Assembly (NCBI GenBank): GCA_963745075.1
Contig: CAVUWV010000018.1
Coordinates: 1-64,000 of the forward strand
Direction: 5' to 3'
Length of the DNA stretch: 64,000 nucleotides
Origin: Candidatus Hydrogenedentota bacterium
GTDB lineage: Bacteria > Hydrogenedentota > Hydrogenedentia > Hydrogenedentales > SLHB01
How positions within the stretch are numbered: position 1 is the stretch's first letter; each line of letters opens with the position of its first letter. The notes under the pieces were generated by a model. It was given only the letters and a program-made list of their open reading frames with translations. It ran no database searches and had not been told where the DNA came from. A program made the position numbers and the translations under genes. Below, in pieces: positions 8,867-30,470 of this stretch.

Positions 8867-8979
8867 GTTTCTCCTCCGTTATCTCCCGCGATTCCGCACG
8901 TCACAGTGCCGCCGCATTCTATCATCCGCCACCCGAACAGTACATCCCCGTGCGAGCACATTCGGTCTACCACGTCGTC

Positions 8980-9002
8980 CGTCCCTATCGTCCCTATCGT
9001 CC
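8980..9002. repeat. Short 9-mer tandem repeat (CGTCCCTAT)x2.5
   Basis: CGTCCCTAT CGTCCCTAT CGTCC in a divergent intergenic region. Confidence 0.5.
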
Positions 9003-9086
9003 AGTACCCAATCATCGCCCCTGTCACAACTCCTTCAGATGGGGTACAATACCGGTGAATTGGATGTAGTTTGAGTACTCGAGGTC

Positions 9087-10199: not shown

Positions 10200-10474
10200 G
10201 TCATCATCGCGCAGAAGGTCTCGGGCACATCCCTGAGACTCACCTTCGCACGCCGCGTATCGCAGTCCGCACGGGGTGGACTTCTCAGTCGATCCCGCGA
10301 TATACTGTTCGGCAAGCGCGAGGATTCTTGGCTGCGTTATAATTGACACCTTTCCTGATGTCTGCTATTATTCGCCGCGTTTTTTAGCCAGTGTACCTGC
10401 GTTGTGTGTCTAGGAGTGTTGATTCTCGAAAACGGCCACAAGTTGTGCCGTTGCCACCTCAAAGGTAGGATCCC

Positions 10475-11431: not shown

Positions 11432-12270
11432 GCGGTTTTGTAGGATTCATGCGCGGTTCCCTGAGTATCGCGCGATACACCTGGCGCGAAGGTCTCCGCA
11501 AGAAAACCATGATCGGCTTTCTCATCCTGAGCATCCTGGTTATCTTCGGCTCCCAATTCATGACCGCGTTCCTGACCCGATCCACCATCGGTGACAGTGG
11601 CGCGGACCTGGACGTTAAACTCATCAAAGACATTTGCGTGACCACCATCGCCATTTTCGGAATGCTGATTACCGTCTTTATCTCCGCGTCGGTGGTACCC
11701 GGGGAAGTCGAGAATAAAGTAATCTACACCATACTCTCCAAGCCCGTACGGCGCTTCCAGTACCTCTTCGGCAAGTTCCTCGGCGTTCAGTTTATCGTGA
11801 TCCTGAACCTCGCGCTGATGGGAGGCTTGTTCTTCCTCGCCCTTTACGTCAAACAGCAGGTTTGGCCGACGCTTCTCCTGTACTCGATTTTCCTGACATA
11901 CTTTCAGTTTCTCATCGTTTCGGCCTTCACATTCGCCGTTTCCTGCACGTCCAGTTCCTCGGTGTTGCCAACAATTGCCGGACTCTTCATTTACATCACC
12001 GGCAACCTCACCGAGTACCTCAAGGACGTTTCAGTTCGGGCCGGCCAGACCGAACAGGCGCTCGACGCCCTGATCGGGCGCATCTCCTGGGGCCTGTATC
12101 ACGTGCTGCCCAATCTACGGTTCTTCGATTTGAAGGACCAGATTCTCTATCTCCAGCCCAACGACCCCCCGCGCGACGTTCAGTTCCCGCAGCTCATCGC
12201 ATACGGACTCGCGTACGCGCTGGCCGGGTATATCATGGCGTACTGGATTTTCCGCCGTAAGGAACTGTAG
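11428..12270 (+). CDS. ABC-2 type transporter permease
   Basis: IARYTWREGLR, EVENKVIYTILSKPVRR..GKFLG, C-terminal FRRKEL, ~6 TM helices. Confidence 0.9.
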   Translation: MSGFVGFMRGSLSIARYTWREGLRKKTMIGFLILSILVIFGSQFMTAFLTRSTIGDSGADLDVKLIKDICVTTIAIFGMLITVFISASVVPGEVENKVIYTILSKPVRRFQYLFGKFLGVQFIVILNLALMGGLFFLALYVKQQVWPTLLLYSIFLTYFQFLIVSAFTFAVSCTSSSSVLPTIAGLFIYITGNLTEYLKDVSVRAGQTEQALDALIGRISWGLYHVLPNLRFFDLKDQILYLQPNDPPRDVQFPQLIAYGLAYALAGYIMAYWIFRRKEL

Positions 12271-12275
12271 TAGAA

Positions 12276-14108
12276 ATGGCTAAGAAGTTCCCGAACCTTT
12301 TGTTAGGACTCCTGCTCGTCGCAGTCCTGGCCGTGGCAACGCTCCAAGGCCGTCATGTCGACCATCTGCGCGACTGTGACCATTTTTATCGCTGGATTAT
12401 TTCCGCGTGCACACAAGTCCGCATATTCGGACTCCCCGGTACGGTCCTGAACAAAACGGACGTAGATACGAACGGTCAGAAGGAAGACTACGACCTTCGC
12501 CTTTTCCACTCGCTGGTCGAGAAGAGCGATTCCTTTCTCGAAGATGTCCCGGTAGCCGACTCGGATTACGACAAGGATGGTAATCCCTATCCAAAAGTCG
12601 TCCGATATACGGCGGCGCCGCTGGATCCGAAAGCGGAATCCTCCGACGTTGAAAAGGGGCAGATTCAAAGCGCCGAGCAGGTCCGCCGCGACTGGGAACT
12701 GTGGCAAATGGCACAAAGTAAAGAACTGGCCCCTCTTCGCAGCGAATTCCTCGCCGCCCTGCGAGATGGAAACCTGACGAGTTCCGGGTCGCAATTCAAC
12801 CTCTCCGGCATGTACGAGGAACACGGGACCACCGCCAACCTCGCCAACATGTTCCTCGGATTCCGGAAGATGGCCGCCAACCTCATCTGGCTCCAAATCG
12901 ACAAACTCTGGCACAAAGGCGCCATGTATCAAATGATTCCGCTGATGCGAACCTGCGTCACGCTGGATCCGACCTTCGTCGATGCATTCCTCGTAGGCGC
13001 CTGGCACCTTTCGTATAACATTCCCGCCAAACTTGAGATTACGCCGTATGAATTGCGCACCTACCACCCGGAATACGACGACTGGCTGGGCGAGCGGGAG
13101 GATTTCATTTACGCGGGCGTCGAATTCCTGAAGGACGGCATCCGCAAGAATCCGCGCGAGTACAAGCTGTATTTCGATCTCGGATTCGCCATCTACGAGG
13201 AGAAACTGGACAATATCCCGAAGGCGATCGAGTATCTTTCCGAAGCCATTCGGCTCGATCACGACCGCTGGGTACGGCGCCAACTCTATCGTGAACTCGG
13301 TGAGGACGGCCGCCTCGAGGAGTCGAAAGCGGGCTGGGAGAGTTACCTCGAGTGGCAACCCGGCAACGAGGTCGCCAAGCGCTTTATTCACCTCATGGAT
13401 GGCGCCATCAAAGAACGTAACGCCGAATGGGCCTCCGACCGCGCCCGGGCCGCCGAGAAACGCGCCGAACTCGCCCGTCAACAGGGGAACGAGGCCGTGG
13501 CGAAGGAATGGGATGCCAAAGCGGAAGAGGCCCGAACTGCGGAAGCAGAGGGGTACAAAGAGGCCCGGGCCTACTGGCAACAGATCGTGGACGACTCCAA
13601 TGGAGAAGACACGTACGCTTTGGCTCGAGTGCTGCTATTGAACGCCCGGGAAAAGGTCCAGCAGGAACGGTACGTTGAAGCCATCGTCGATTTTGACAAC
13701 GCCCGCTGGGCCTCCAGCACGTTCTGGGACGAAGCCACCGACGCTATGGTCCAGACAAAGCTCAAGGCCAACCAGCCTCTTTCCCTGACCGAGAAACGAC
13801 AGCTTGATCGCGAAACAGACTCCCTCCAATACACACGCCACCTTCCCAAATCGATTGGCGGGGAGCACTACCGGTTTGACGATGGCACGTGGTACGAAGA
13901 GACGCGAGAATCACGTGGCGAACCGAAGAAGATCCCCCGCGATTCGTCAGAGTTGTACGAACTCATTTACCGCCATCCGCAGATCGCAAAGACCTTGGAC
14001 GATTTGGATGGCGACATCGTGCTCCAGGCCGGGGATACCTGGTACTACATCGACTCGCCAAAACCGGCAATGGCGTCCAAGCTGTACACCCCACCGCCAG
14101 CGGCATAG
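12276..14108 (+). CDS. Membrane-anchored TPR-like protein associated with the ABC transporter
   Basis: N-terminal TM; GFRKMAANLIWLQ, TLDPTFVDAF..AWHLSYN, helical repeats. Confidence 0.7.
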   Translation: MAKKFPNLLLGLLLVAVLAVATLQGRHVDHLRDCDHFYRWIISACTQVRIFGLPGTVLNKTDVDTNGQKEDYDLRLFHSLVEKSDSFLEDVPVADSDYDKDGNPYPKVVRYTAAPLDPKAESSDVEKGQIQSAEQVRRDWELWQMAQSKELAPLRSEFLAALRDGNLTSSGSQFNLSGMYEEHGTTANLANMFLGFRKMAANLIWLQIDKLWHKGAMYQMIPLMRTCVTLDPTFVDAFLVGAWHLSYNIPAKLEITPYELRTYHPEYDDWLGEREDFIYAGVEFLKDGIRKNPREYKLYFDLGFAIYEEKLDNIPKAIEYLSEAIRLDHDRWVRRQLYRELGEDGRLEESKAGWESYLEWQPGNEVAKRFIHLMDGAIKERNAEWASDRARAAEKRAELARQQGNEAVAKEWDAKAEEARTAEAEGYKEARAYWQQIVDDSNGEDTYALARVLLLNAREKVQQERYVEAIVDFDNARWASSTFWDEATDAMVQTKLKANQPLSLTEKRQLDRETDSLQYTRHLPKSIGGEHYRFDDGTWYEETRESRGEPKKIPRDSSELYELIYRHPQIAKTLDDLDGDIVLQAGDTWYYIDSPKPAMASKLYTPPPAA

Positions 14109-14263
14109 CCGGTAACACGTTGCAGCCGACTGTCGGCTCGCTCCGATTCGAGATCGAAAACCGACGGCGTTGCGCATATCTTCGACTCGTCTTAAAGGGA
14201 CTTGAATCCAGGGGGCCAGCCCAACTACCATACCAAGGCCGAGTCGCAGGGTAAGGGGTATCT

Positions 14264-14926
14264 TTGAGCGAAGACGCTATCGAAGCACGACTTACGGACG
14301 TACGCCGACGCATCGCGGATGCCGCGGTACGGGGTAATCGTGCCCCCGATGAAATCACGTTGGTGGCCGTAACCAAGGGCCGTACGGCCGAAGATGTCCG
14401 GTCCCTCTATAACCTTGGCATTCGACACTTTGGCGAGAATCGCGTTCCCGAAGCGGAGACGAAGATCGCCGCGTTGCCGAACGACATCGTGTGGCACATG
14501 GTCGGCAACGTGCAGCGCCGAAAAGCCCCCGCAGTGCTCCGTTTGTTTCAACGAGTGGACTCGGTCGACCGGGTCGAACTCGCCGAGACCTTGAACCGAC
14601 GGGTCGAGTCGGCTGATACGATCTTGGACGTTTTGGTCGAAGTAAACGTTTCCGGAGAGGCTTCCAAACACGGGATGGTCCCGTCTGCCTTACGGTCGGC
14701 CTTGGAAGCAATGTCGGGTTTCGAACACGTTCGCGTGGTGGGCCTGATGACGATGGCGCCGTTGTGCGACGACACGGAATTGGTCCGGCCCGTCTTTCGG
14801 AAACTGCGTAAGTTGGCGGTCGAAAACAATTTGCCCGTCGTTTCCATGGGGATGTCGGGGGACTTTGAAGTGGCAATCGAAGAAGGCGCTACCGAAGTGC
14901 GCATCGGCACCGCTTTGTTTGTCTAA
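14264..14926 (+). CDS. yggS: PLP homeostasis protein, YggS family
   Basis: [49 protein letters not shown] start. Confidence 0.96.
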
Positions 14927-15024
14927 AAGCGGTACCTGGCACCGTCTCACGGAGGCTGGGACCGAAACGTTTTCTCACGAAGTCCAACGTCTGTCACCTC
15001 TGGACATGTGAAGGAAGGCATTTG

Positions 15025-16032
15025 ATGAAAGAAGAACTCGAGCGGCTTCGTGTGGAGGCCTTGGCGGAAATTGCGGATGCCGATTCGTCCCGTCAGATTG
15101 AGGACCTCCGGGTCAGGTTTCTGGGCCGGAAAGGCGCCATCACCGCGATACTCCGGAGCGTAAGCCAGGCATCCGCGGAGGAACGCCCCCTTCTGGGAAA
15201 GGCCGCCAACGAGCTGAAAAACGCCCTCACGATAGCCATCGAGGCCCGCGCGGCGGATGTTCTCGCCCGGGAACGCGCTACCACGAGCCGCAAGGACCGT
15301 CCCGATATTACCCTTCCGGGAAGGAAACCGGAGCTTGGCCACTTGCACGTGATTACGCAGGTCGCCGAGGAAATCCTCGACGTCTTCGGCGAATTGGGGT
15401 TTCAAGTGGCGACGGGACCCGAGGTCGAGACCGAATACTACAATTTCGACAGTCTCAACACACCCGCCGATCACCCTGCGCGGGACTTGCACGACACCTT
15501 CTTTGTCAAACCCGGCGTCGTCCTCCGAACCCACACATCGCCGGTCCAGATGCGGGTCATGGAACGATCGAAACCGCCCGTCGCCGTGGTCGTACCGGGC
15601 AAAGTCTACCGCGTCGATGCCGACGCGACCCACAGTCCCATGTTCTTTCAGATCGAAGGGTTGCTGGTCGACGAAGGTGTCAGCTTCGCGGACCTGAAGG
15701 GCACCCTCATGCACTTCGTCCACCGCTTCTTCGGCAAGGACGTCGTGATGCGGTTCCGTCCTCATTTCTTCCCGTTTACCGAGCCCTCTGCCGAACTCGA
15801 CATCCTCTGGACCAGCAAGGCGGCCGACGGCAGCACCCAGACCAAGTGGATGGAAATTCTGGGTTGCGGCATGGTCCATCCCGAGGTATTTCACTACGCC
15901 GGGTACGACTACGAGAAGTACACCGGCTTTGCTTTTGGGCTCGGCGTCGACCGAATCGCCATGGTGCGGCACCGGATCAGCAGCATCAGCTACTTATACG
16001 AGAACGACTTACGATTCCTGGAGCAGTTCTAA
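15025..16032 (+). CDS. pheS: Phenylalanine--tRNA ligase alpha subunit
   Basis: HPARDLHDTF, LRTHTSPVQ, FPFTEPS, GFAFGLG. Confidence 0.98.
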   Translation: MKEELERLRVEALAEIADADSSRQIEDLRVRFLGRKGAITAILRSVSQASAEERPLLGKAANELKNALTIAIEARAADVLARERATTSRKDRPDITLPGRKPELGHLHVITQVAEEILDVFGELGFQVATGPEVETEYYNFDSLNTPADHPARDLHDTFFVKPGVVLRTHTSPVQMRVMERSKPPVAVVVPGKVYRVDADATHSPMFFQIEGLLVDEGVSFADLKGTLMHFVHRFFGKDVVMRFRPHFFPFTEPSAELDILWTSKAADGSTQTKWMEILGCGMVHPEVFHYAGYDYEKYTGFAFGLGVDRIAMVRHRISSISYLYENDLRFLEQF

Positions 16033-16033
16033 T

Positions 16034-18424
16034 ATGCGGATCTCCTATCGATGGCTTAAAGAACTTGTCGACTTCGACCTGGATGTCGAAGCACTGGCCC
16101 AGCGCCTGACCCTACTGGGCCTTGAAATCGAATCCGTCGAGCGGCCCGGCCAAGGGATTCGCGAGGTCTACATCGGCCGGATTCTCGACATCCAATCGCA
16201 CCCCGATGCGGACAAATTGGTCGTGTGCAAAACCGACATCGGCCTGAGCGACCCCCTCCAGATCGTCTGCGGCGCTAAGAATATGAAAGTGGGGGACTTG
16301 GTACCGACTGCCGTGGTCGGTGCGACGCTGCCCGGTGGCTTCGAGATTGGCCGCCGAAAGATGCGCGGCATCGAATCCCAAGGCATGATGTGCTCGGCCC
16401 GCGAACTCGGCTTAGGCCAAGACCATGCCGGCCTGCTGATTCTTCCCAACGACCTGCCGGTCGGCGCCGACGCCATCCCGATCCTCGGTCTGGACGATGT
16501 GATTCTCGAGATCGAGGTGACCCCGAATCGCGGCGACTGGGCCGGCATGCTCGGTGTGGCCCGGGAACTCGCCGCCTCGCTGAACACCGAGGTGAGACTT
16601 CCCGACGCGACCTTGTCCGAAGACGGCCCGCCGGTTACCGAACTCTCGAGCGTGACTATCGACGATCCGGACTTGTGCCCACGGTACACGGGCCGTGTTC
16701 TAACAGACGTGAAAGTGGGACCGCCACCCCTTTGGATGGTCCAACGACTCGTCCATGCAGGCCAGCGTTCCATCAGCAACCTCGTCGACATCACAAACTA
16801 CGTGATGCTGGAGACGGGCCACCCGCTACACGCCTTTGATTTCAATACTCTCACAGAGAATCGAATCCTCGTGCGGCGCGCGAAACATAATGAAACAATT
16901 AAAACAATCGACGAAACAGATAGAAAGCTCGATGAAGACACGCTGGTGATCGCGGACGGCGCAAATCCTATTGCTATAGCTGGAGTTATGGGCGGATTCG
17001 ACAGTGAAGTTACAAATAAGACATCGGTAATCTTTCTTGAAAGTGCCTATTTCAAACCCCAATCAATTCGGCGTTCTTCCAAGACGTTGGGGTTGCAAAC
17101 CGAGTCATCAACACGGTTCCAGCGTGGCGCCGACCCGGAAATGGCACGATTCGCGCTGGACCGCGCCGCGCAACTCATCCAGCAATACGCGGGGGCAAAG
17201 GTGGCCAAAGGGGTTCTGGACGAGCACCCCGGCAAGGCGGCGCCTCGGGAAATCTCCCTGCGCTACGCGCGTACGGACTTGCTTCTGGGCGGGGAAATCC
17301 CTCCGGAATCCCAGCGTAACTATCTCGCCGATTTGGGTTTCGGTGTCGAGGAAGTTGACGGGAGTGAGTGCACGATCACCATTCCCGCATGGCGGCATGA
17401 CGTTACCCAGGAAGCTGACTTAATCGAAGAGATCGCCCGGCTTTACGGCTACGACGCCATCCCGATCACCTTGCCGCGGGTGCGTAAGACCGACCAGATT
17501 TTCGCACCCATGGAGAAGCCATTGCGCGAATTGCGCCACTTGCTGGCTGGCACGGGCCTGTCAGAAATGATGAGCCTCAGCTTCGGCAACCCGAGCGACT
17601 TGGACGGCGCAGGATTAGATTCTGACGGGATGCTGATGCTCCAAAACCCGCTCTCCGAGAACCATGCGGGCATGCGGACCAGCTTAGTGCCGGCCATGCT
17701 CCAAGCGGTATCGACCAACATCCGGCGCGGCGTAGAATCCATTGCGGCCTTCGAGGTCGCCAAGGTTTACCTCCCAAAACCTGACGAGGAACTTCCCGAG
17801 GAACGGGTGGACCTCTGCATCGCGCTGGCGGGCCGGCACGGGGCACGGCACTGGAGCCGCGAACCCCGGCAATCGGATTTTTACGACATCAAAGGCCTTG
17901 TCGAGTCACTGGCTGAGACCCTCGGAATTCGTCTTGAAATGGCAGCAGGGGAGTCTGGATATCTGGAACCCGGACACGGAATTGCGCTCCACTTCGAAGG
18001 CGAAAAGGTTGGCGTCTTCGGCCGCCTCGCTACCAATGCCGCCCAGCATTTCGACATCGATAAGCCGGTATTCCTAGCGGACTTAACCTTGGAATCCCTT
18101 CTCAATGCCACAAAACCCGAACGCCACTTCCAGGAGGTTTCCGTATTTCCGCCATCCTTGCGGGATATGGCGGTCGTCCTCGACGCGTCCGTTCCGGCCG
18201 GCGACATACTGGAAGCCGCCCGAAATGCGGGAGGGAAACTCCTTCACCGTGTGGAAATCTTCGACGTGTATACTGGTAAGCAAGTTCCGGAAGGCAAGAA
18301 AAGCCTCGCCCTGGGGCTCGTATTCCAGGCGCCGGACCGCACCCTGACCGATAAAGATTCACAGAAGAGCTGGGACAAGATTCTCCGAAGGCTACAGGAC
18401 ACGTTTCAGGCACAACTCCGGTGA
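16034..18424 (+). CDS. pheT: Phenylalanine--tRNA ligase beta subunit
   Basis: MRISYRWL, HPDADKL, IVCGA, TPNRGD, DLIEEIARLYGY, C-terminal FDX-ACB domain. Confidence 0.98.
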   Translation: MRISYRWLKELVDFDLDVEALAQRLTLLGLEIESVERPGQGIREVYIGRILDIQSHPDADKLVVCKTDIGLSDPLQIVCGAKNMKVGDLVPTAVVGATLPGGFEIGRRKMRGIESQGMMCSARELGLGQDHAGLLILPNDLPVGADAIPILGLDDVILEIEVTPNRGDWAGMLGVARELAASLNTEVRLPDATLSEDGPPVTELSSVTIDDPDLCPRYTGRVLTDVKVGPPPLWMVQRLVHAGQRSISNLVDITNYVMLETGHPLHAFDFNTLTENRILVRRAKHNETIKTIDETDRKLDEDTLVIADGANPIAIAGVMGGFDSEVTNKTSVIFLESAYFKPQSIRRSSKTLGLQTESSTRFQRGADPEMARFALDRAAQLIQQYAGAKVAKGVLDEHPGKAAPREISLRYARTDLLLGGEIPPESQRNYLADLGFGVEEVDGSECTITIPAWRHDVTQEADLIEEIARLYGYDAIPITLPRVRKTDQIFAPMEKPLRELRHLLAGTGLSEMMSLSFGNPSDLDGAGLDSDGMLMLQNPLSENHAGMRTSLVPAMLQAVSTNIRRGVESIAAFEVAKVYLPKPDEELPEERVDLCIALAGRHGARHWSREPRQSDFYDIKGLVESLAETLGIRLEMAAGESGYLEPGHGIALHFEGEKVGVFGRLATNAAQHFDIDKPVFLADLTLESLLNATKPERHFQEVSVFPPSLRDMAVVLDASVPAGDILEAARNAGGKLLHRVEIFDVYTGKQVPEGKKSLALGLVFQAPDRTLTDKDSQKSWDKILRRLQDTFQAQLR

Positions 18425-18717
18425 AACCGCGCATCCAAGAGCAGATTCAAGAAATCGAGGCCACGATCGATCGACTGCGCATCGCCGCCCAAGCCGCTGC
18501 CGGGAAGGTTGAATCGGTCCAGGCAGCCCAGGAGGAACTCCGCAAGGAGCACTGGCGCCACCGCAAGGAGCTGGCAACTTTGTCCCGGACGGTGGACGAC
18601 ATCACCGGACTCGAGAATGAGAACGCCCGTTACCGGGAATGTGTCGGAGAACTCAAAGACACCCTTCAAAACCTGCTTGCGGGCATCAAATCCCTGCGGG
18701 CCGAGTACCGCACATGA
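18421..18717 (+). CDS. Coiled-coil protein, ZapB-like
   Basis: 98-aa all-helical heptad pattern between pheT and zapA, translationally coupled to both. Confidence 0.55.
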   Translation: MKPRIQEQIQEIEATIDRLRIAAQAAAGKVESVQAAQEELRKEHWRHRKELATLSRTVDDITGLENENARYRECVGELKDTLQNLLAGIKSLRAEYRT

Positions 18718-19019
18718 AGACGCCCTCGCTGCAAGTGAAGATGGGGGGGAAAACGGTAACCGTTCCCATCGTCAAGAACGAAGAAACTACCCTGCGCATC
18801 GTTGAACGCGTAAACCAACGTCTTCAGGACATCGAGGAAAGCAGTCCCCGAATCGATACGCAAGCCTTCGCGCTGCAAACGGCATACTCCTTCGCCGTAG
18901 AGCTGGCCCAGGCAGAAGCTGCCGAAGCGGACGACCAGCAAGACACGCTGGAGGCCTTGGGGCGATTGCAGCGCTCGCTGGAAGACGTGTTAATGGTACT
19001 AGACTTTAGCGCTGACTAG
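18714..19019 (+). CDS. zapA: Cell division protein ZapA-like
   Basis: N-terminal beta hairpin (VKMGGKTVTV), VNQRLQDI, ALQTAYSFAVEL then coiled coil; pheT-zapA synteny. Confidence 0.7.
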   Translation: MKTPSLQVKMGGKTVTVPIVKNEETTLRIVERVNQRLQDIEESSPRIDTQAFALQTAYSFAVELAQAEAAEADDQQDTLEALGRLQRSLEDVLMVLDFSAD

Positions 19020-19097
19020 AGTCCGCAGGCGACCGCATCCTTACCATAGGATAAATCCCTCGATAGACCGCATGGGGCGGGTTTCATTGCCCATTAA

Positions 19098-19125
19098 ACG
19101 TCTGATAATATATATTATGTTCAAT
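19098..19125. other. dif: XerCD dif site (chromosome dimer resolution)
   Basis: ACGTCTGATAA-TATATA-TTATGTTCAAT: 11-6-11 layout; XerD arm is 1 nt from E. coli TTATGTTAAAT, spacer TATATA as in B. subtilis dif; intergenic. Confidence 0.85.
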
Positions 19126-19475
19126 TAGTTTGTGCATGAATACCCTCAGAACGCCCCTCATCGTGGTGCCCGCGAGCGCCAACCACCTCTCTTGCGTATT
19201 CCTGTGTCATACCCGCACCTTATTTTCGTCGTGAGCTTTTTGATGCAAGTCATTATATACATAGTTCTTGAGAACTTTATAGACCGCATCGAGGGTTGTG
19301 CGCCTGGCGGATTTTCAGTGGTTTTGCATCGCGTCGCATGACGCTGCTTGCTCGATTCAAATTGAGACAACGCCGGTTGGACGGTCGAAGTACAAAAAAG
19401 ATGACATGGGCGCTTTTGGGGTCGGTGACGGGATTCTGAGACAAGACACGTTCGGTGAAGGGCTGGAAATGAAAA

Positions 19476-19551
19476 TGGAGCGGGATACGGGGTTCGAACC
19501 CGCGACATCCAGCTTGGGAAGCTGGCACTCTACCAACTGAGTTAATCCCGC
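19476..19551 (-). tRNA. tRNA-Gly(CCC)
   Basis: GCGGGATTAACTCAGTTGGTAGAG..CCAGC-TTCCCAA-GCTGG..GGTTCGAACCC..CCCGCTCCA, 76 nt with encoded CCA. Confidence 0.97.
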
Positions 19552-19566
19552 TCTATCGGCGGCCGT

Positions 19567-19595
19567 ATTCTAGCACCTCCCCACCCCCCTGTCAA
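19567..19595 (-). promoter_or_regulatory. Sigma70 promoter of tRNA-Gly
   Basis: TTGACA-N17-TAGAAT on the minus strand. Confidence 0.8.
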
Positions 19596-20747
19596 TCGAC
19601 CCGCGGCCTTCTGGACCTCATGAAGCCAGGATGAAATGCGCGGTTTCGGGCGCCCCACGACCTCAAGATTCAGACACGTTTCCAGGCGTGACATCTGCGG
19701 ATGTGACTAGCGTGACCGTCCTTGGAGTCAGCGGCTTCGGCCGACCAAGGGGTCGAGCCGGGTGGGATCGCCTCTAAATTGACACCGTCGTCCACTTCCA
19801 ATCTCGGTTCGGAGTTACGCATGGTTATTTGCTGACGGCCAGTTCAGCGTAGCAGTCAGGGGGGTATGATTAAGGTGACATCAGAATTTTCGGGGTATTT
19901 TCTTAACTGATTTCTACTTCGTATAGGTGCAGCCCATGAGTAGACTTAAAATTGGAGCGTAGGGTCGGCGCGATTCATTTGCTTTCCGGTATGATTCCAG
20001 GCAACATCTATTTTTCGTTACACGAAACGCGAATTCTGAGATGTAAATTATTTCTCTGACGTAATTGGCCCCTGTTGCCGTCACTCTCCTGCAAGGGATG
20101 TCATCTAAAGCATGCACTCTGGGCAAATTGACAAAATCGTACGCTCCTATTTCACCAATTTGTCCAAAGACTACTGAAGCGTTCGGAATCATGCTGTTTC
20201 ACAATGAACACCGACGCCCACACGGTTCAAGCGGAATACTCCCCCACTTCCCGTGTCGGACACGCGATCTCAGTCGGATTTTGCGGGCAGCACGTACGAA
20301 GATTGTGTCCAGCTCCGTGCCCCACGCGTCGATTCGCCGGTTTGCGATGACAGGGATGATTCGCTTGGCACCCTGCACGAGATCGAATCCTGAAGTATCG
20401 GGTCGGTGGGCTCGCAAACACGCAGGCAAGACAAAGGCGCCAAGCGACGTCGTGCGTCCAGGGTGTTGGCAAGACTCGCGGCCGGACACCTTCCTACTTT
20501 GCAGGGAGGATTTGGTCGAGACCGCGGTACTCTCGACCCGCAAGTTCGAGCGTCCCTGCGAATGCGCTTCCGGGAAGAACTTTGCGGATCAGGCGGTGAG
20601 AATCTTTCCCACGTGCCCAGAACCCCCGGACTGCACCCAATTTGCCGATGCGCGTCCACATTAGGCAAGATTCCGGCCTAATTGGCTTGTGCGGGTGGGG
20701 AATTCGGACTAGAATGGACTATCACAGCCACCTCCCGAGGATTGTGC

Positions 20748-20776
20748 TTGACACGGGGCGAATCAGGGTGTAGGAT
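20748..20776 (+). promoter_or_regulatory. Sigma70 promoter of recA
   Basis: TTGACA-N17-TAGGAT; GGAGGAG RBS downstream. Confidence 0.8.
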
Positions 20777-20784
20777 ACGGCGTG

Positions 20785-20803
20785 GTGAATAAATTTTCAG
20801 TAT
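20785..20803 (+). promoter_or_regulatory. Candidate repressor (LexA-like) operator of recA
   Basis: GTGAA-TAAATT-TTCAG-TAT palindrome between -10 and RBS; 15/18 identical to the site upstream of the dinB-family gene. Confidence 0.6.
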
Positions 20804-20821
20804 ATTTAGAGGAGGAGTTCC

Positions 20822-21883
20822 ATGGCTGACACAAAGACCGATCCGAAGGGGAAAGCCCTGGATATTGCCGTTGCACAACTCGAGAAGCAGTTTGGCCGGG
20901 GCACGTTGGTGCGTCTCGGTGATGACCAGTTCGACCGCCGGGCCCGGGCTATCTCGTCCGGGAGCCTGTCGTTGGATATTGCAACCGGGGTCGGGGGGTT
21001 CCCGCGCGGCCGAGTGGTCGAGGTGTTTGGACCGGAATCTTCGGGTAAGACGACGCTCGCCCTGCACGTGGTGGCAAACGCGCAAAAGGCCGGTGGCATT
21101 GCGTGCTTCATCGATGCGGAGCACGCGCTGGACCCCACCTTTGCGACGAAGATCGGGGTGGACATCGATAACCTCTTGGTGTCGCAGCCGGATACGGCGG
21201 AACAGGCCTTGGAGATCTGCGAGACCCTGGTGCGAAGCAACGCCGTAGACGTGATCGTCATCGACTCCGTGGCGGCGATGGTACCCAGAGCGGAAGTCGA
21301 AGGCGAGATGGGCGACAGCCATATGGGCCTTCAGGCTCGTTTGATGTCGCAGGCATTGCGTAAATTGACCGCCTCGATCAGTCGCTCGAAGACCCTCGTC
21401 ATTTTCATCAACCAGATCCGCGAAAAGATTGGCGTCATGTTTGGAAGTCCTGAAACGACGACGGGCGGGCGGGCGCTTAAGTTCTATTCCAGTATGCGGA
21501 TTGATGTTCGCCGTATCGCAACGATCAAAGAGCGGGACCAGGATGTCGGGAATCGCGTACGCGGCAAGGTTGTCAAGAACAAGATGGGTCCCCCCTTCCG
21601 TCAGGCGGAATTTGATATCTTGTTCAACGAAGGGATTTCGAAAGAAGGCGATTTGCTCGATCTCGCCGTCGAGAGTAAACTCATCCAGAAGAGCGGAGCC
21701 TGGTTTTCGATGAACGGCGAGAATTTGGGCCAGGGCCGCGAGAACACTCGCCAGTTCCTTCGGGACAACCCGGAACTTGTCGAAAAGCTCCGGGCGCAAA
21801 TCATTAAGGAGAAGGGTCTCAATTGGGCTGAATCGGAGGAGCCGGAGGAAGGCGAACCAGCCGAGACCAGCGCCAAGAGTTGA
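20822..21883 (+). CDS. recA: Recombinase RecA
   Basis: [42 protein letters not shown]. Confidence 0.99.
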
Positions 21884-21896
21884 TACCTCGATACGT

Positions 21897-24800
21897 ATGG
21901 ACGAGCCGAACGTCGCCGCGTCCCGATATTCCCGTCTTTGGTTGGTGGGGCTATTGGCCCTGACAGCCATTGTCACGGGGGGAGCGCTGTTTGCGAAATA
22001 CCAATTGGAAGGGGTCCGCGGGGTCCTTTTGGATAACGCGCGAACGCGGATCGGCGCCCGCCTGCAAGTAAAGGACATCGACGCGTTCGGACTGCGCGGG
22101 CTTCGGGCTGAAGGTGTGCGGTTCACCTATCCGAACGCCCCCGGTGGCGAGCTGGAGGTGGACGCTCCCGAGGCGCTCATCTACATCGACCTGCTGGACC
22201 TGTTGTCGGGGAAGGTTTCCGTTGAACACATCCGGCTCGATGGCGCGAGTTTCCACATTCGGCGTGAGCCGGGCGAGCCATGGGTCCAACCGGTAGCGGG
22301 GCTCCCAGGTGGTCCGTCCGCCATTTCGTCCACGGGTATTCCGTTCCGTCTTACAGGCTCCGGGTGCACACTTTCGGCCGACAACGTAGTAAACAATACG
22401 AGACTCGAAATGACGGGGGTGGATTTTGACATTTCGCGACTGACCGGTTCTCCAACGATCACGGGCACCGTATCCGGAACCCTTGAAAACGACGATGACA
22501 AAGCATTCGCACTGGACATCCAATATGCGTCACCGAAAGACTTCGATTTCCGGGTTCGGTGCGCCAAACTGTCGGCGGATGACGTTAACATCTTCCTTCC
22601 TGCGACCCGGCGGATGATCCGGACGGGGACGGCCAGTCCGACGGCACGGTTGACCGGCAATGAAAACGGTACGATTTCGATTTCGCTGGAGTCTGCCTTC
22701 GAGGACATTCAGGTGCGGAATCAACCGGAGTATCTCCCACCGGCGACCGGGACTTTTTCGGCGTACGGAAGTTACAGCCCGGCGAGCCGTACGCTGCAAC
22801 TTTCGATGGCCAACGCGGAGACTCAGACGCTGTCGGGTAGCGTCAACGGGGAGGTGACTTTCGGGGAGGGTTCTCCTAATCTGAATTTGACGTTCACGTC
22901 GTCTAGGCTGCCCGTGCGTGAAGTATTGAATTCTTTACTTGCAGGTCGACTGGAACGATACGGTGAAATCGAGTACTCCGTGGATACGCTCGAGGAATGT
23001 AAATTGACTCTGACGGGAAGCACTGAAGAGCCCATCATCAAGGCGTCGGCGGCGGCGGATGGGGGCTCATTGGCCTTCACTCCGGCCGATTCGAAGTATC
23101 CTAAGGGGGAAGTGCGCCTGGGCCATTTCGAGGTGGCCTGGGATTCGGAAACGCGAGAGCCGAGCGGGACCATTGCGATACTCGACGGAAGTATCGCGCA
23201 CAAGCGAACCGACTTGGAGGCAGATAACCTTTCCGGGCGGGTGGCCATGCAGGGAGGCGAAATTCAGGTGGACCCGCTCAAGGCGTCCTTTATGGGGCAG
23301 CCCTTGATGGTAACGGGGTCGTACAACGTCGAGGAGCAGAAAGGCGAAGCGGCGGTGTCGGGTTCGCTGGACCGGATCGAGAAGACCAAGCTGGCCGGCT
23401 ACATTCGCAACGCGGAACTCGCGGGGAGCGGTTCGGTAAACGCGAATCTGCGGCTGAGTAGGGACAGCGTCAAATTCGACGCCGACGTGGATGCGACGCA
23501 GACGGAGATCGGGTACCGGTGGTGGTTTCTGAAACCCGTAGGGATTGGCGCCAACGGCAAGATCGAAGGAACCTTAAAGCTGAACAGATCCATCACGTGC
23601 ACGATCGATGCGTTGATTGCGGGAACGGAGGTTTCCGCGACAACCGATCTCGTCTACAACGGATCCAAATGGCAACTACGGGACGTCAACGCCACGTCGG
23701 ACTCGGTGGACGTGGTGTCCGTGGGGAAATGCCTTCCCCTGCCCTATACGATTACCGGCGGGAAGGGAACCAAGGGGTCGTACGTCTGGCACCGAGACGA
23801 AGCGAAGCCCGACGAGACCCGTTCGCAGTTTGCCTGCGATATCGATCAAATTGGGTTGCAGGCCGATACATCGGACCAGCCGATCCTTTGCAAAGTGGTC
23901 CATCTGGAAGGCGGCATGGTCAGCGGTTCCGAGGAAACCGGGGAATTGACGGTCGTCATGGACCAGGGTCAGACGCCGCCATTGCGCGGATCGAAATGGT
24001 TTGCTCCCCTGGAGCGGGACTTGGAGAAGTTTCCTCCCGTGGACCGGCGGTGGACGTTTAACCTCAAGGCGAAGACGCTTGAGGTGCCGCCGTGGACAGG
24101 CATTGATTTTGTTGGCGACGGGTTCGGGGACCTCACCGAGTTCGGTTTGAGCCACTACAGCGCGAAGGTCGAGGAAGGCCGGGTCAGCGGGTCGTATCTC
24201 AACCATCGCAACGAGAACTCGTTCGAGTCCGAAGCCGCGTGGGAGAACGTGCCGGCGAAGTACCTCATGGACACGCTGGACCTGGCGCACGTGTTTCGCG
24301 GGAATATGTCGGGCAAGGTATCGTACTCGCAGGACCGGGACGACCCCGGCACTCTGGAAGGAAAAGGGTACTTCACCATGGGGGATGGCCAGTTCAGCGC
24401 GGACTACCTGCTTTCCATGCTGGAACAGCAATCGGATTCCGCCGGGGTCTCCTCCCTGCCGCCATCGTTGCGGTTTTCGTCCCTCGAAACCGACGTGGAA
24501 TTTGAGAAAGACGTGGTGCGCACGCCGCGAATCGAGCTGACATCCGACGCGATTCGCCTGAAGGCCCAGGGCCAGTTCGTGACCGACGGCGACATGGATT
24601 ATGACATCCAGATTGCGGTTACTCCTGACGCGGCGGAGCGCATCCCGTTGTTGGCGGAGAATTTTAATGTCCAGGGGCATCGCCTGGCGCAGCAGGATAT
24701 TGACCTCGCATTCAAACTGACCGGACCGGCGTTGAAGCCGGTGAGTTCGCTGGAAGAAACGCCGCCGGTGCATGTGACACTGGTGAGTGGCGCTCTCGAG

Positions 24801-24920
24801 GCAGCTAACGAAGCCATCCGTGTAATCGATGCACCTAGAAAAATACTGGTCGATCTGCTTAAAATTGGGGGAGGTATTGTGGGAGCACGAAAAGCCGCAC
24901 CATCGGGGAGTCCCAATTAA
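21897..24920 (+). CDS. AsmA-like/TamB-like large beta-taco protein
   Basis: N-terminal TM anchor, ~1000 aa rich in beta strands, AsmA-like C-terminus (GQFVTDGDMDY..LAFKLTG). Confidence 0.7.
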   Translation: MDEPNVAASRYSRLWLVGLLALTAIVTGGALFAKYQLEGVRGVLLDNARTRIGARLQVKDIDAFGLRGLRAEGVRFTYPNAPGGELEVDAPEALIYIDLLDLLSGKVSVEHIRLDGASFHIRREPGEPWVQPVAGLPGGPSAISSTGIPFRLTGSGCTLSADNVVNNTRLEMTGVDFDISRLTGSPTITGTVSGTLENDDDKAFALDIQYASPKDFDFRVRCAKLSADDVNIFLPATRRMIRTGTASPTARLTGNENGTISISLESAFEDIQVRNQPEYLPPATGTFSAYGSYSPASRTLQLSMANAETQTLSGSVNGEVTFGEGSPNLNLTFTSSRLPVREVLNSLLAGRLERYGEIEYSVDTLEECKLTLTGSTEEPIIKASAAADGGSLAFTPADSKYPKGEVRLGHFEVAWDSETREPSGTIAILDGSIAHKRTDLEADNLSGRVAMQGGEIQVDPLKASFMGQPLMVTGSYNVEEQKGEAAVSGSLDRIEKTKLAGYIRNAELAGSGSVNANLRLSRDSVKFDADVDATQTEIGYRWWFLKPVGIGANGKIEGTLKLNRSITCTIDALIAGTEVSATTDLVYNGSKWQLRDVNATSDSVDVVSVGKCLPLPYTITGGKGTKGSYVWHRDEAKPDETRSQFACDIDQIGLQADTSDQPILCKVVHLEGGMVSGSEETGELTVVMDQGQTPPLRGSKWFAPLERDLEKFPPVDRRWTFNLKAKTLEVPPWTGIDFVGDGFGDLTEFGLSHYSAKVEEGRVSGSYLNHRNENSFESEAAWENVPAKYLMDTLDLAHVFRGNMSGKVSYSQDRDDPGTLEGKGYFTMGDGQFSADYLLSMLEQQSDSAGVSSLPPSLRFSSLETDVEFEKDVVRTPRIELTSDAIRLKAQGQFVTDGDMDYDIQIAVTPDAAERIPLLAENFNVQGHRLAQQDIDLAFKLTGPALKPVSSLEETPPVHVTLVSGALEAANEAIRVIDAPRKILVDLLKIGGGIVGARKAAPSGSPN

Positions 24921-24927
24921 GTAGTCT

Positions 24928-25491
24928 ATGGAAATACGAATCGGTAAACCAGCACGCGCGTGTTCGCAAACAGAACGACCTTTCGAACATGGCGAGGAAG
25001 TCGTGTCGATGGTGAAGATGGAGAATCAGGCGCTGGTCCGGCTGGACTTTGCGAAAGATTCGTTCGACCCCGCCATGGCCAGCGGCGCACTCGCCGTGTG
25101 GGCGACGGAGTACATCGACCCGAAGGTCGCGGAACAGGAGCCGGAAGAAGCCTATTCACCCCTTCGGCGCCTGTTTTATGATACGGTGGAGTCGACGGAC
25201 CGCGTTCAACTGGCGAAAGCGTTTCTGGCGGCTCAACTGTTGCGCCGGCAGAAAGTCTTTCGCTTGGTGAAGGAATCGGAAGAAGTCGAGGGTGAAAGTC
25301 GCGTCGCACTGTTTACGGATCGGATTAATAACCGCTTGATTGAGGTGCGCGACCCGTATCTGACATTGGCCGAGATGGAGCAGGGACGCACCATCTTGGT
25401 CGAGGAGCTTAACGCGCTTGAGGCGGACGCGAACGAGGAGTCCGCCGAAACCGAGGAAGTGACAGCAGCACAACATGGCGAATCTGAATAA
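24928..25491 (+). CDS. Hypothetical protein
   Basis: 187-aa ORF in operon context; CSQTERPFEHGE N-terminus, LAAQLLRRQKVF. Confidence 0.7.
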   Translation: MEIRIGKPARACSQTERPFEHGEEVVSMVKMENQALVRLDFAKDSFDPAMASGALAVWATEYIDPKVAEQEPEEAYSPLRRLFYDTVESTDRVQLAKAFLAAQLLRRQKVFRLVKESEEVEGESRVALFTDRINNRLIEVRDPYLTLAEMEQGRTILVEELNALEADANEESAETEEVTAAQHGESE

Positions 25492-26350
25492 GTCCAGAGG
25501 CAAGAACAATAAGGAGAAACCGGCACTCCAACTGACGTCGTATCAGTTGGTGATGGCAATTTGTGCGCTGCTGTTGTTGATGTGTGTGTTGTTCATTGCG
25601 GGCATCTTGGTCCAACGATTCAGCGACCGCGGACAACACAATCCGGTCGCAGTGAATAACTCGGCAACGCTGGAGCCGTCACGGCCGAGCGGGGCTACGC
25701 CATCGGCACCCAAGACCGAAGGCGTGCAGGTTGCGCCGCGACCCGTGACACTGCCGGCCGAGGGGGCACAGCCTGGCCCGGCAATGGCAAAGAAGACCAC
25801 GGAGCCGGACGCGAAATATATCCCCGCTCCTCCCCCACGCCGCGATCGCGGAAAGCCGACGCCGAAGCCGGAGACCTCGTCGACGACCAGCAAACCCGAA
25901 ATGACGGCGAAGGAGACCCCGGAATCAACGCCAGTGAGCGAGCCGTCGACTCCGGTGAAGCCCGCGGCCCCCGAAGCGCCCAAGACGGAATCGACGCCGC
26001 CCGTCAAGACCGAACCGGCTAAGGCCGCGGAGAGCCCCCCCCCGCCACAAACGACGGAAGAGCCGAAGACAAACTCGACGGAAACTACGGAGGATTCCGA
26101 GAAGGGTCCGTTTACGGTTCAGGTGGCGTCGTTCGACTCCAACAATCTGGATCGGGCCAAGCGCTTCAAAACGGATGTTGAGAAGGATACCGACTATTCC
26201 GTCAACTTGGTGCCGTCATCAGACGGCAAACATGTTCGCGCGTACGTGGGCGAGTACGCGGACCGCGCAGCGGCGGATAAAGCGAGAGACTCCATGCGCA
26301 AGATCGAGGATTTTAAGGATTGTTTTGTGAAAGCGCTGAACGAGGAGTGA
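25475..26350 (+). CDS. SPOR domain protein (FtsN/DedD-like)
   Basis: Single TM, Pro/Thr/Glu-rich linker, FTVQVASF..RAYVGEY..A SPOR domain. Confidence 0.85.
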   Translation: MANLNKSRGKNNKEKPALQLTSYQLVMAICALLLLMCVLFIAGILVQRFSDRGQHNPVAVNNSATLEPSRPSGATPSAPKTEGVQVAPRPVTLPAEGAQPGPAMAKKTTEPDAKYIPAPPPRRDRGKPTPKPETSSTTSKPEMTAKETPESTPVSEPSTPVKPAAPEAPKTESTPPVKTEPAKAAESPPPPQTTEEPKTNSTETTEDSEKGPFTVQVASFDSNNLDRAKRFKTDVEKDTDYSVNLVPSSDGKHVRAYVGEYADRAAADKARDSMRKIEDFKDCFVKALNEE

Positions 26351-26387
26351 CCGCCATGTGCTCGGATAACGAAACGGGGGAATCGCC

Positions 26388-27263
26388 ATGAAGGTATCGG
26401 TTGTGGGCCCGGGTGCCATGGGATGTTTGTACGCGTCGCAGCTTGCGCGAGCGGGAGTGGACACGACGCTGGTTGATCGCCAACCGGACCGTGCGACGCG
26501 CCTCAATGCCACTGGAATCACCGTTGAATCAGGCGCCGGTACCGAGACGGTAAAGGTCAAAATTGTTTCAACTGTTCCAAGCGGTCAGGATTTGATTATC
26601 GTATGTGTTAAATCACATGACACCGGTAACTTAAGTCTGAATGGCCGCGGCTCGGTCTTGACGCTGCAAAACGGCCTTGGAAACATTGAAACACTTTGCT
26701 CGGCGATTGGTAGTGCAAATCTCCTCGTGGGTGTCACCACCGAGGCTTCCACCCAAATTGAAGAGGGGCACGTCCGTCACGCGGCGCGTGGTGTTACCCG
26801 GCTGGGATCCTGGACATCCTGCTCCACGGACATGGCGATGCGCGCATTGGAGAAGGCTGGCTTTGCGGTCGAGTTGACCGAGTCGCCGGGGCAGGCAGTT
26901 TGGGAGAAGGTGGCGATCAATGCCGGCATCAACCCGATTACGGCGCTTCTGGATATCCCTAACGGTCAGATTTTGAACATCCCGGAGGCGCGGCAACTCA
27001 TGCGCGATTTGGTGGTCGAGGCGGTGAAAGTGGCGTGCATGGAGGGGTATCGGTTCGACAAGAGTCTGGTCGAGGTGGCCGAGGCGACTTGTGAGGAAAC
27101 AAAAGATAACATTTCGTCCATGCTTCAGGACGTTCGCGCCCACCGAAAGACCGAGATTGACGCCATCAGCGGCGAGATTTTGCGACGTGCGCAGCAATCG
27201 GCCTTGCCGACCCCGAGAACCCGTGTAGTCTGGCAATTGCTGAAGGGCATGGAACGCCGTTGA
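26388..27263 (+). CDS. panE: 2-dehydropantoate 2-reductase
   Basis: VVGPGAMG, VKS, LQNGLGN, WEKVAINAGIN, SSMLQD..TEIDAISG. Confidence 0.94.
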   Translation: MKVSVVGPGAMGCLYASQLARAGVDTTLVDRQPDRATRLNATGITVESGAGTETVKVKIVSTVPSGQDLIIVCVKSHDTGNLSLNGRGSVLTLQNGLGNIETLCSAIGSANLLVGVTTEASTQIEEGHVRHAARGVTRLGSWTSCSTDMAMRALEKAGFAVELTESPGQAVWEKVAINAGINPITALLDIPNGQILNIPEARQLMRDLVVEAVKVACMEGYRFDKSLVEVAEATCEETKDNISSMLQDVRAHRKTEIDAISGEILRRAQQSALPTPRTRVVWQLLKGMERR

Positions 27264-29863: not shown

Positions 29864-29881
29864 TGGGACCCTCGTAAACCG

Positions 29882-30461: not shown

Positions 30462-30470
30462 ATGGGGAAG

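What the first reader, a model, noticed from the sequence alone, without database searches (positions are those of the whole stretch)
19098..19125. dif site at a strand-skew switch with origin-like (inverted) polarity
Seen: a near-consensus 28-bp dif. Hand counts of 60-nt lines left of it are C-rich whichever strand the gene is on (3241: C24/G15; 8101: C24/G15; 15481: C24/G12). Lines to the right are G-rich (21001: G23/C17; 28141: G24/C14; 52801: G17/C12), and lines near 17-18.5 kb are about neutral. Synonymous codon endings flip the same way. Known: the leading strand is normally G-rich, so a C-to-G switch marks oriC and dif sits at a G-to-C switch. Inference: either this lineage has inverted GC skew (C-rich leading strand), or dif lies next to an origin, or the contig is misjoined. 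Most genes left of dif point toward it. Several GGGNAGGG (KOPS-like) octamers on the right arm point away from it.
Basis: partly seen in the sequence, partly recalled or inferred. Interest (0 to 1): 0.78.

Follow-up and report, generated by a model that had tools for sequence, protein, structure and literature searches.

The report
Origin-like skew jumps, one at dif
The chromosome-unlinking site of this uncultured bacterium is real and sits where replication should end, yet the DNA around it carries the base-composition mark of a place where replication starts, a mark that recurs at about a dozen other spots, many beside one unknown repeated gene, which hints at hidden extra start sites or an undescribed local mutation process.

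Summary
Confirmed: a single, family-conserved dif (19098-19125) lies on a C-to-G skew switch (contig cumulative minimum 19227). The host is a Hydrogenedentota MAG. A misjoin is unlikely (gene order across dif kept in 5 of 8 relatives). dif is not beside oriC: oriC flanks dnaN on another contig and is antipodal to dif in two closed relatives. The E. coli-type KOPS claim fails. A lineage motif, GTGGGGGAG, converges on dif instead (89 of 93 copies in a closed relative). Simple lineage-wide inversion also fails, because oriC itself steps C-to-G and a closed relative has normal polarity. The dif step is one of about 14 up-steps with slow decay between them and no equally sharp down-steps (sawtooth, G/C only, independent of gene strand). 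Seven lie within 10 kb of a Hydrogenedentota-specific multicopy gene with a terminase-small-subunit-like HGGxSTG domain, or its remnants. Predicted up-steps were found at 6 of 6 copies in four other genomes. dif itself has no such gene. Best reading: secondary, outward-moving DNA synthesis starts at dif and at these genes. A/T skew does not step, which argues against full origins. No earlier scan note on this was found.

The parts
19098..19125 (+). dif site (XerC arm, 6-bp spacer, XerD arm)
   Evidence: Unique in the assembly; 1-4 mismatches to the copy in 13 of 13 relatives' loci examined; single core match in at least 21 of 53 family genomes; XerD, probable XerC and FtsK-gamma encoded elsewhere
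14000..25000 (.). Zone of the C-to-G skew switch (cumulative minimum 19227; fourfold-site change point about 21,970; step +0.63, top 0.2% of intergenic positions)
2001..19097 (.). C-rich left arm (GC skew -0.060; fourfold sites about -0.25)
19126..64000 (.). G-rich right arm (GC skew +0.116; fourfold sites +0.32 to +0.39; peaks 10-40 kb from dif and decays to zero about 300 kb away on the contig)
9376..9384 (+). Lineage KOPS-like motif variant pointing toward dif (left arm)
16289..16297 (+). Lineage KOPS-like motif variant pointing toward dif (left arm)
20239..57783 (-). Eleven lineage KOPS-like motifs pointing back toward dif (5' bases at 20247, 25838, 28572, 28608, 30766, 33318, 35577, 43025, 49740, 55560, 57783); one at 24865 points away
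   Evidence: they run against the local G-richness of the + strand
16034..19019 (+). pheT, a small ORF and a zapA-like gene ending 79 bp before dif (conserved left neighbourhood)
19476..19551 (-). tRNA-Gly(CCC)
20822..21883 (+). recA (right neighbourhood; best of 80 kept hits is a Ca. Hydrogenedentes MAG at 80% identity)
37757..37893 (+). Short remnant (5' motif plus hairpin) of the multicopy HGGxSTG-gene element, 18 kb from dif; no full copy lies in the window

Best explanation
This is a genuine terminus dif, but in this lineage G/C skew is not a simple read-out of forks running from oriC to dif. It is dominated by local sources from which a process runs outward in both directions and leaves the outward-reading strand short of C and rich in G, as a normal leading strand is. 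Shown: the sources include oriC, dif, and copies or remnants of a Hydrogenedentota-specific multicopy gene with a terminase-small-subunit-like HGGxSTG domain; the signal decays over 100-300 kb; the dif-pointing motif does not change direction at the internal sources. Inferred: the process is secondary replication initiation (part-time origins primed at a nick, break, D-loop or R-loop), firing in only a fraction of cycles. At dif it would be restart or over-replication out of the terminus; at the element it would be set off by the element's protein or its conserved 5' motif and hairpin. What starts it at dif and at the largest step (C8, 450 kb), where no element is found, is not shown.
For: Shape: 22 of 1,044 windows step up by more than 0.25 and none steps down that far; skewness 1.79 against a maximum of 1.27 in 1,000 block sign-flip simulations of inversions. 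This N shape is the published signature of origins with dispersed termination (PMC3320577, passages). Polarity is calibrated by oriC, which steps C-to-G, and by the normal closed relative G079. The signal is the same for + and - genes and appears in intergenic DNA (coefficient +0.27, s.e. 0.02), so it is mutational rather than transcriptional. The polarised motif keeps its direction across the internal steps. 7 of 14 up-steps lie within 10 kb of the element or a remnant, which cover 7.6% of the genome (partly circular). Independent tests: 9 of 13 remnant loci not used in discovery step up (p=0.03); 6 of 6 copies in four other genomes step up, -52/+30, +18/+25, -39/+53, -15/+11, -41/+2, -15/+24 (predicted beforehand); 4 of 4 distinct metagenome loci with both flanks step up. 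Near dif, the strand pointing to dif is C-rich in 8 of 13 genomes, neutral in 1 and at most +5 in 4.
Against: A/T skew at fourfold sites follows the motif direction (-0.040, s.e. 0.003) and not the sawtooth (-0.015, s.e. 0.024), and its pooled step at 13 up-steps is -0.005, s.e. 0.012; true origins should move it. No DnaA-box cluster, AT-rich tract or initiator gene was found at the non-oriC steps. dif and the largest step have no element, and four relatives with a C-rich strand toward dif lack it (G007, G036, G047, G051). One of the four full copies in this genome (C27) shows a local spike but no clear long-range step at 15 kb. Genes do not favour the locally G-rich strand (47-49% in most bins, 44% at the strongest skew); rRNA and the ribosomal-protein operon follow the motif direction, so the operon at C8 would be met head-on. 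The step is 20-30 kb away from dif in G012 and G051 and absent in G002 and G008. dnaA, recG and rnhA are kept in the family, so the usual genetic routes to DnaA-independent replication are not evident. No replication data were available.
Confidence: 0.4

Rival explanations
1. Same local sources, but the outward process is not replisome-based. Nicks or breaks at dif (XerCD, septum) and at the element (a terminase-like or packaging-related cut) lead to strand displacement, resection or single-strand transfer that exposes the outward-reading strand and loses C, while ordinary replication still runs oriC to dif.
For: Explains why only G/C moves while A/T skew, motif, rRNA and gene orientation keep the two-arm pattern. 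The very sharp spike at the element's 3' end (-79 to +43 within 2 kb, pooled) suggests a fixed cut point. Weak similarity of the protein to terminase small subunits (PHROGs E about 0.001 for 3 of 10 members; NF041373 below its cut-off).
Against: No known nick- or break-based process leaves a heritable two-sided gradient over 100-300 kb (own knowledge); no nuclease or large terminase gene was found beside the element; oriC gives the same kind of step.
Confidence: 0.27
2. Fork-borne G/C skew is weakly inverted in this genus (C-rich leading strand), which by itself makes dif a C-to-G switch; the element-linked and other steps are a separate local layer on top.
For: The strand pointing to dif is C-rich on average over 3,686 genes, most strongly in the three same-genus genomes (-28, -23, -17); dif and the C8 step are broad, unlike the sharp element steps; C-rich leading strands are reported for some Actinobacteria (recalled, not checked); this genome has a second DNA polymerase III alpha gene while the normal relative G079 has one.
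Against: oriC steps up, not down. On the dif contig the skew fades to zero and changes sign within 300 kb rather than staying constant. G012 and G051 return to normal polarity on one arm within about 40 kb of dif. G036 has one polymerase alpha gene and still shows the reversal.
Confidence: 0.18
3. The pattern is a relic of rearrangements and gene transfer (inversions, a moved oriC cassette, former termini), and the elements simply insert at or mediate such junctions.
For: The motif does not diverge at oriC in this genome and diverges 200-470 kb from dnaN in G079, which hints that the oriC cassette moves; G079 has many local reversals; Xia 2012 warns of such artefacts (PMC3269012, passages).
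Against: Inversions give up- and down-steps in equal numbers; the observed asymmetry exceeds all 1,000 simulations. Motif polarity does not flip at the steps. Steps at element copies have the same sign in 10 of 10 two-sided loci from other genomes.
Confidence: 0.12
4. The contig is misjoined at dif.
For: The assembly is a 36-contig MAG; no reads of the organism itself could be laid.
Against: Gene order across dif is conserved in 5 of 8 relatives; the motif converges on dif from both sides; same-genus genomes show the same switch.
Confidence: 0.02

Closest known systems
XerCD/dif with FtsK-orienting polar sequences (E. coli KOPS GGGNAGGG, B. subtilis SRS, L. lactis KOPS; PMC3384302 and PMC3025954, passages read)
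   Same: 28-bp two-arm site, single copy, antipodal to oriC in closed relatives, XerC/XerD/FtsK-gamma present, a G-rich polarised motif converging on it.
   Different: The motif is GTGGGGGAG-like, not GGGNAGGG; the GC-skew switch at dif has origin polarity instead of terminus polarity.
N-shaped skew domains of the human genome (PMC3320577, passages read) and multi-origin archaeal chromosomes
   Same: Sharp upward jumps with gradual decline between them, independent of gene strand, of unequal height.
   Different: Here it is a bacterium with an intact DnaA/oriC system and two-arm motif polarity; only G/C steps, A/T does not; no timing data.
Proposed or shown multi-origin bacteria: Wigglesworthia, Wolbachia, Mycoplasma pulmonis by skew (PMC3269012, passages); Synechocystis, Nostoc, Cyanobacterium aponinum, Geminocystis by experiment (PMC7198777, abstract)
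   Same: Several polarity changes on one bacterial chromosome.
   Different: Those profiles are described as irregular and, in cyanobacteria, DnaA-independent; here steps are strong, one-signed and tied to dif, oriC and a specific gene family, with dnaA kept in 49 of 53 family genomes.
Over-replication of the terminus region (Dinoroseobacter dif-enriched vesicle DNA, PMC7901474, passages; E. coli recG mutants, recalled)
   Same: Extra DNA synthesis centred on dif or the terminus.
   Different: There the extra DNA is thought to be removed; no heritable skew reversal is reported in the passages read; recG is present here.
Bacteria with inverted GC skew such as Streptomyces (recalled, not checked in a call)
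   Same: C-rich strand pointing to the terminus on average.
   Different: oriC here steps the normal way, and there are many internal steps.
HGGxSTG domain proteins (NF041373) and phage terminase small subunits
   Same: N-terminal Cys/His motif ending in HGG, followed by a GNxN..HGxY stretch.
   Different: 430-530 aa (or about 240 aa) with an unknown helical C-terminal part, stand-alone, multicopy, limited to Hydrogenedentota in the hits named, no phage genes found beside it; scores are below family cut-offs.

Membership tests
XerCD/dif chromosome dimer resolution site | 28-bp site with two 11-bp arms and a 6-bp spacer, conserved XerD arm | tested here: met
XerCD/dif chromosome dimer resolution site | Single copy, intergenic, conserved in relatives | tested here: met
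XerCD/dif chromosome dimer resolution site | XerC, XerD and FtsK-gamma encoded | tested here: met
   XerD over cut-off (337 vs 329.6 bits); XerC best hit but under cut-off (315 vs 335); FtsK-gamma in 6 of 6 genus genomes
XerCD/dif chromosome dimer resolution site | Located opposite oriC | tested here: inconclusive
   Met in 2 of 2 closed relatives (28 kb and 200 kb from the antipode); cannot be measured in this draft
XerCD/dif chromosome dimer resolution site | At a G-to-C (terminus-type) skew switch | tested here: not met
   C-to-G switch. This is a usual correlate, not part of the biochemical definition
XerCD/dif chromosome dimer resolution site | Recombined by XerCD | not testable with these tools
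   needs a plasmid resolution assay
KOPS-type FtsK-orienting motif (GTGGGGGAG) | At least 90% polarised toward dif near dif and at least one per 40 kb (criteria of PMC3384302) | tested here: met
   13 of 14 in the window for a four-variant set; 89 of 93 in closed G079; 95 of the 100 listed, out of 190, in G110
KOPS-type FtsK-orienting motif (GTGGGGGAG) | Bound by FtsK-gamma | not testable with these tools
   needs a binding assay
E. coli KOPS GGGNAGGG | Polarised toward dif | tested here: not met
DnaA-dependent oriC at dif | DnaA-box cluster and AT-rich unwinding tract | tested here: not met
   No cluster on contig C18; clusters flank dnaN on C10 and in 5 of 5 relatives
Lineage with inverted GC skew | G-to-C switch at oriC and constant C-rich leading strand | tested here: not met
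   oriC steps up by 0.33; skew decays and resets along arms; G079 is normal
Multi-origin chromosome | Several one-signed skew jumps with linear decline, independent of gene strand | tested here: met
Multi-origin chromosome | All replication-linked asymmetries switch at the jumps | tested here: not met
   A/T step -0.005, s.e. 0.012
Multi-origin chromosome | Marker-frequency peaks or mapped initiation at the jumps | not testable with these tools
   only low-share contig runs were available
Phage terminase small subunit / HGGxSTG family (element protein) | Profile match over the family cut-off or a clear fold match | tested here: inconclusive
   28.8 vs 29 bits for one fragment, 22.8 for P0003 and none for P0008; PHROGs E 0.001; model pLDDT 53, no fold match at E<=0.001

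The most novel reading that the evidence does not exclude
Hydrogenedentota replicate a DnaA/oriC chromosome from about a dozen additional part-time origins, one at the terminus dif and several created by a selfish, terminase-small-subunit-derived gene that turns each locus it occupies into a bidirectional start site; a naturally multi-origin bacterial chromosome acquired by element capture, readable from sequence alone.
Probability: 0.25. Interest if true: 0.92.

Novelty: new variant of a known kind. Interest (0 to 1): 0.74.

Why it matters
Whether free-living bacteria with a working DnaA/oriC use extra natural origins is a long-standing open question, and earlier skew-based claims lacked a candidate site. 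Here the steps are strong, one-signed, calibrated by oriC, and predictably tied to a specific gene family across genomes, so the question becomes testable by coverage profiles and by cloning one element. If the cause is not replication, it is an undescribed locus-centred, strand-specific mutation process acting over 100 kb or more. Either way, skew-based origin and terminus calls and dnaA-based genome rotation are wrong for this phylum (oriC flanks dnaN; dnaA lies 217-376 kb from dif in both closed genomes), and a candidate phylum-level FtsK-orienting motif is identified.

Tried and rejected
DnaA-less lineage: this assembly lacks dnaA, but 49 of 53 family and 106 of 109 phylum genomes searched have it, and its neighbours end contigs C2 and C31, so it is an assembly gap. 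Origin at dnaA: no skew switch in most of 11 relatives' dnaA loci (G012 steps -10/+10). Loss of recG or rnhA as cause: recG present; rnhA missing here but present in 37 of 37 relatives, including genomes with the same pattern; its gap was not checked. Second polymerase alpha gene as cause: does not track the pattern (G036 has one gene and the reversal). Contig breaks at steps: 31 of 54 ends, p=0.34. Step after the ribosomal-protein operon as a conserved feature: 1 of 3 relatives. Additional dif-like sites at other steps: none. Non-coding RNA near dif: only the tRNA. Reads: four runs laid, none spans the stretch, shares 0.00-0.12, uninformative. Structure of the element protein: low confidence, no significant fold match. 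Literature: 0 papers for Hydrogenedentes with GC skew and 0 for HGGxSTG; searches listed no report of this pattern by title or abstract start; the library lacks most subscription papers. The SkewDB paper had no passage on inverted skew for the terms tried. Earlier scan notes: none on this subject. Only parts of the closed relatives were sampled (60 pieces, about 0.97 Mb, of G079; 2 pieces of 5 kb of G110), so their step structure is unresolved.

Full report
Observation. The 28-mer at 19098-19125 has the dif layout and is unique in the 6.8-Mb, 36-contig, 89.7% complete assembly. GC skew is -0.060 left (2001-19097) and +0.116 right, deeper than all 10,000 block shuffles, and the cumulative minimum of the 354-kb contig falls at 19227, about 100 bp from the site. 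Fourfold-degenerate third positions flip on both gene strands. The switch is gradual, with a fourfold-site change point near 21,970. The GGGNAGGG octamers are what composition predicts (8:2 seen, 11.5:2.9 expected) and are not polarised elsewhere.

Host and site. The best of 80 kept RecA hits is a Ca. Hydrogenedentes MAG at 80% identity, the rest 69% or less, and the named relatives of another protein are all Hydrogenedentota. A dif core occurs once in at least 21 of 53 family genomes (the pattern missed some, for example G011, found), and 13 of 13 loci examined differ from this one by 1-4 bases. XerD, a probable XerC and FtsK-gamma are encoded. Gene order across dif is kept on both sides in 5 of 8 relatives, on the pheST side in 2, and on neither in 1. 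A misjoin is therefore unlikely; reads could not test it.

Where the terminus and origin are. A search for words polarised by contig gave GTGGGGGA(G); GTGGGGGAG is 80:4 on 17 contigs oriented by its own sub-words, which is partly circular. Independent checks: in the closed genome G079, 89 of 93 copies point toward dif with one divergence between 1.49 and 1.75 Mb; in closed G110, 95 of the 100 listed (of 190) do; in G012 the 7-mer is 59:10 toward dif. In the window 13 of 14 copies of a four-variant set point to dif, against the local G-richness. It meets the published criteria for a KOPS candidate (PMC3384302, passages); binding is untested. rRNA genes follow the motif strand in this genome, G079 and G110, as do 54% of 3,686 genes and a T-rich A/T skew. 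oriC is beside dnaN: DnaA-box clusters on both sides, an AT-rich tract and a parS-like pair 20 kb away on contig C10, with 7-15 boxes in the 3.35-kb dnaN loci of 5 of 5 relatives. dnaN is 28 kb and 200 kb from the point opposite dif in the two closed genomes. So dif marks an ordinary terminus and is not next to oriC. dnaA is detached from oriC; here it falls in an assembly gap.

Not a simple inversion. The strand pointing to dif is C-rich on average (-0.065 vs +0.033). But oriC steps C-to-G as well (+0.33 over 50-kb flanks; lopsided, about -35 to +5, with a foreign-looking island nearby). One origin and one terminus cannot have the same sign. G079 has normal polarity (mean +12, 44 of 60 samples). 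Within 10-20 kb of dif the strand pointing to it scores -28, -23, -19, -17, -13, -11, -6, -3, 0, +2, +3, +4, +5 in 13 genomes: never strongly normal, most reversed in this genus. G012 and G051 show a local up-step 20-30 kb from dif and normal polarity further out on one arm.

The sawtooth. Using my own gene calls (5,079 genes, 79% coding), fourfold-site G/C skew shows repeated sharp rises and slow declines on most long contigs, the same for + and - genes. With 30-kb flanks there are 14 up and 6 down peaks beyond 0.18; the five largest are up (0.70-0.36) and the largest down is -0.29. With 25-kb flanks 22 of 1,044 windows exceed +0.25 and none -0.25; skewness 1.79 beats all 1,000 inversion-like simulations. 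The dif step (+0.63) is second to one on C8. The motif keeps its direction across internal steps. The shift is C against G with A and T unchanged at fourfold sites, and it shows in twofold and intergenic sites. A/T skew follows the motif direction, not the sawtooth, and does not step (pooled -0.005, s.e. 0.012). This N shape is the known signature of origins with dispersed termination in human DNA (PMC3320577, passages); the flat A/T skew is the main result against that reading.

What sits at the steps. Comparing step regions revealed a 1.8-kb element whose coding strand has GC skew near -0.45. It carries one gene (open in one copy, broken in three) for a 430-530 aa protein with an HGGxSTG-like N-terminus, weakly similar to terminase small subunits. 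There are four full copies, the 3' end of a fifth at the C35/C12 junction, and about 25 short remnants made of a conserved 5' motif and a hairpin. The family is patchy and multicopy, in 23 of 99 genomes of the order. Seven of 14 up-steps are within 10 kb of a copy or remnant, against 7.6% of the genome, but the family was found at steps. Tests free of that bias: 9 of 13 other remnants step up (mean +0.064, p=0.03; 40% of intergenic positions do); 6 of 6 copies chosen beforehand in G012 (three), G025, G001 and G089 step up on 3-kb flanks 4-7 kb away, in both gene orientations; of 25 metagenome loci with long matches, the 4 distinct ones with both flanks step up, 9 of 11 upstream flanks are C-rich and 6 of 6 downstream flanks are G-rich or neutral (several share a sample). 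Around the 3' ends of the four full copies the pooled skew goes from -79 to +43 within 2 kb and stays +11 to +19 for 120 kb downstream; the C27 copy lacks a clear long-range step. dif, oriC and the C8 step have no copy; the nearest remnant to dif is 18 kb away at 37757-37893. Genes at the steps show no common function.

Mechanism. Shown: local sources with outward G-rich polarity at oriC, dif and element copies, on top of a normal two-arm layout. Inferred: extra DNA synthesis starts at these sources in a fraction of cycles (0.40). At dif this would be terminus restart or over-replication, for which there is precedent in principle (PMC7901474, passages). Rivals are non-replicative single-strand exposure from fixed nicks or breaks (0.27), a weakly inverted fork-borne skew with local resets (0.18), rearrangement relics (0.12) and a misjoin (0.02). 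Whether the element causes steps or targets them is not resolved.

Comparison and novelty. The dif and its orienting motif are new members of known kinds. Several skew switches in bacteria have been read as multiple origins before, with cautions (PMC3269012, passages), and shown by experiment in cyanobacteria with irregular skew (PMC7198777, abstract). dif normally coincides with the terminus switch (PMC3025954, passages). I found no report of one-signed steps that include dif, or of a gene family that predicts them (searches; open-access library only; no supplements were read, and tables of skew databases might list such genomes). I rate it a new variant of a known kind, interest 0.74, with a 0.25 chance of the boldest reading.

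Noticed in passing
G079 C1 4,869,301 and G110 C1 2,246,034; 12 dnaA loci (L027-L046, L239): dnaA is detached from oriC and lies 376 kb and 217 kb from dif in both closed genomes; it keeps only 2-4 tandem DnaA boxes upstream (none seen in G025, where the contig ends), while oriC stays with dnaN.
   Followed up: partly
Own genome C10 0-408 kb; G079 1.49-1.97 Mb: The dif-pointing motif does not diverge at oriC: it runs through oriC on C10 and diverges 200-470 kb from dnaN in G079, as if the oriC cassette had moved.
   Followed up: partly
L002:40-2217 (C36 52.8-54.9 kb); L003 (C8 302 kb): Two long proteins with a DnaA-type ATPase domain but no DnaA DNA-binding domain; the first starts with a stretch resembling the MshE N-terminal domain (by eye).
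   Followed up: no
C1 370 kb, C24 449 kb, C27 167 kb, C36 280 kb, C35/C12 junction; window 37757-37893: Hydrogenedentota-specific multicopy HGGxSTG-domain gene with extreme C-rich coding strand and about 25 short remnants; a candidate new mobile element in its own right.
   Followed up: yes
   Followed up: partly
Own genome, whole: RNase HI is missing from this assembly but present in 37 of 37 relatives; gap or loss not resolved.
   Followed up: partly
C10 428,857-428,899; C27 94 kb; C24 84 kb: parS-like pair at the end of a gene resembling rsmG (by eye), with parB and gidA on other contigs: the usual origin gene cluster is dispersed.
   Followed up: no
C22 (30 kb) and C36 305-398 kb: Low-GC stretches (52% and AT-rich tracts) with strong C-rich skew on the + strand, probably acquired DNA.
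   Followed up: no
window 1-2600: G-rich, poorly coding stretch that breaks the C-rich left arm.
   Followed up: no
C8 420-444 kb: The ribosomal-protein operon ends about 6 kb before the largest up-step; a step there was seen in only 1 of 3 relatives.
   Followed up: yes
Step regions of C1, C8, C10, C24: Several families of short palindromic intergenic repeats, some inserted inside the element gene.
   Followed up: no
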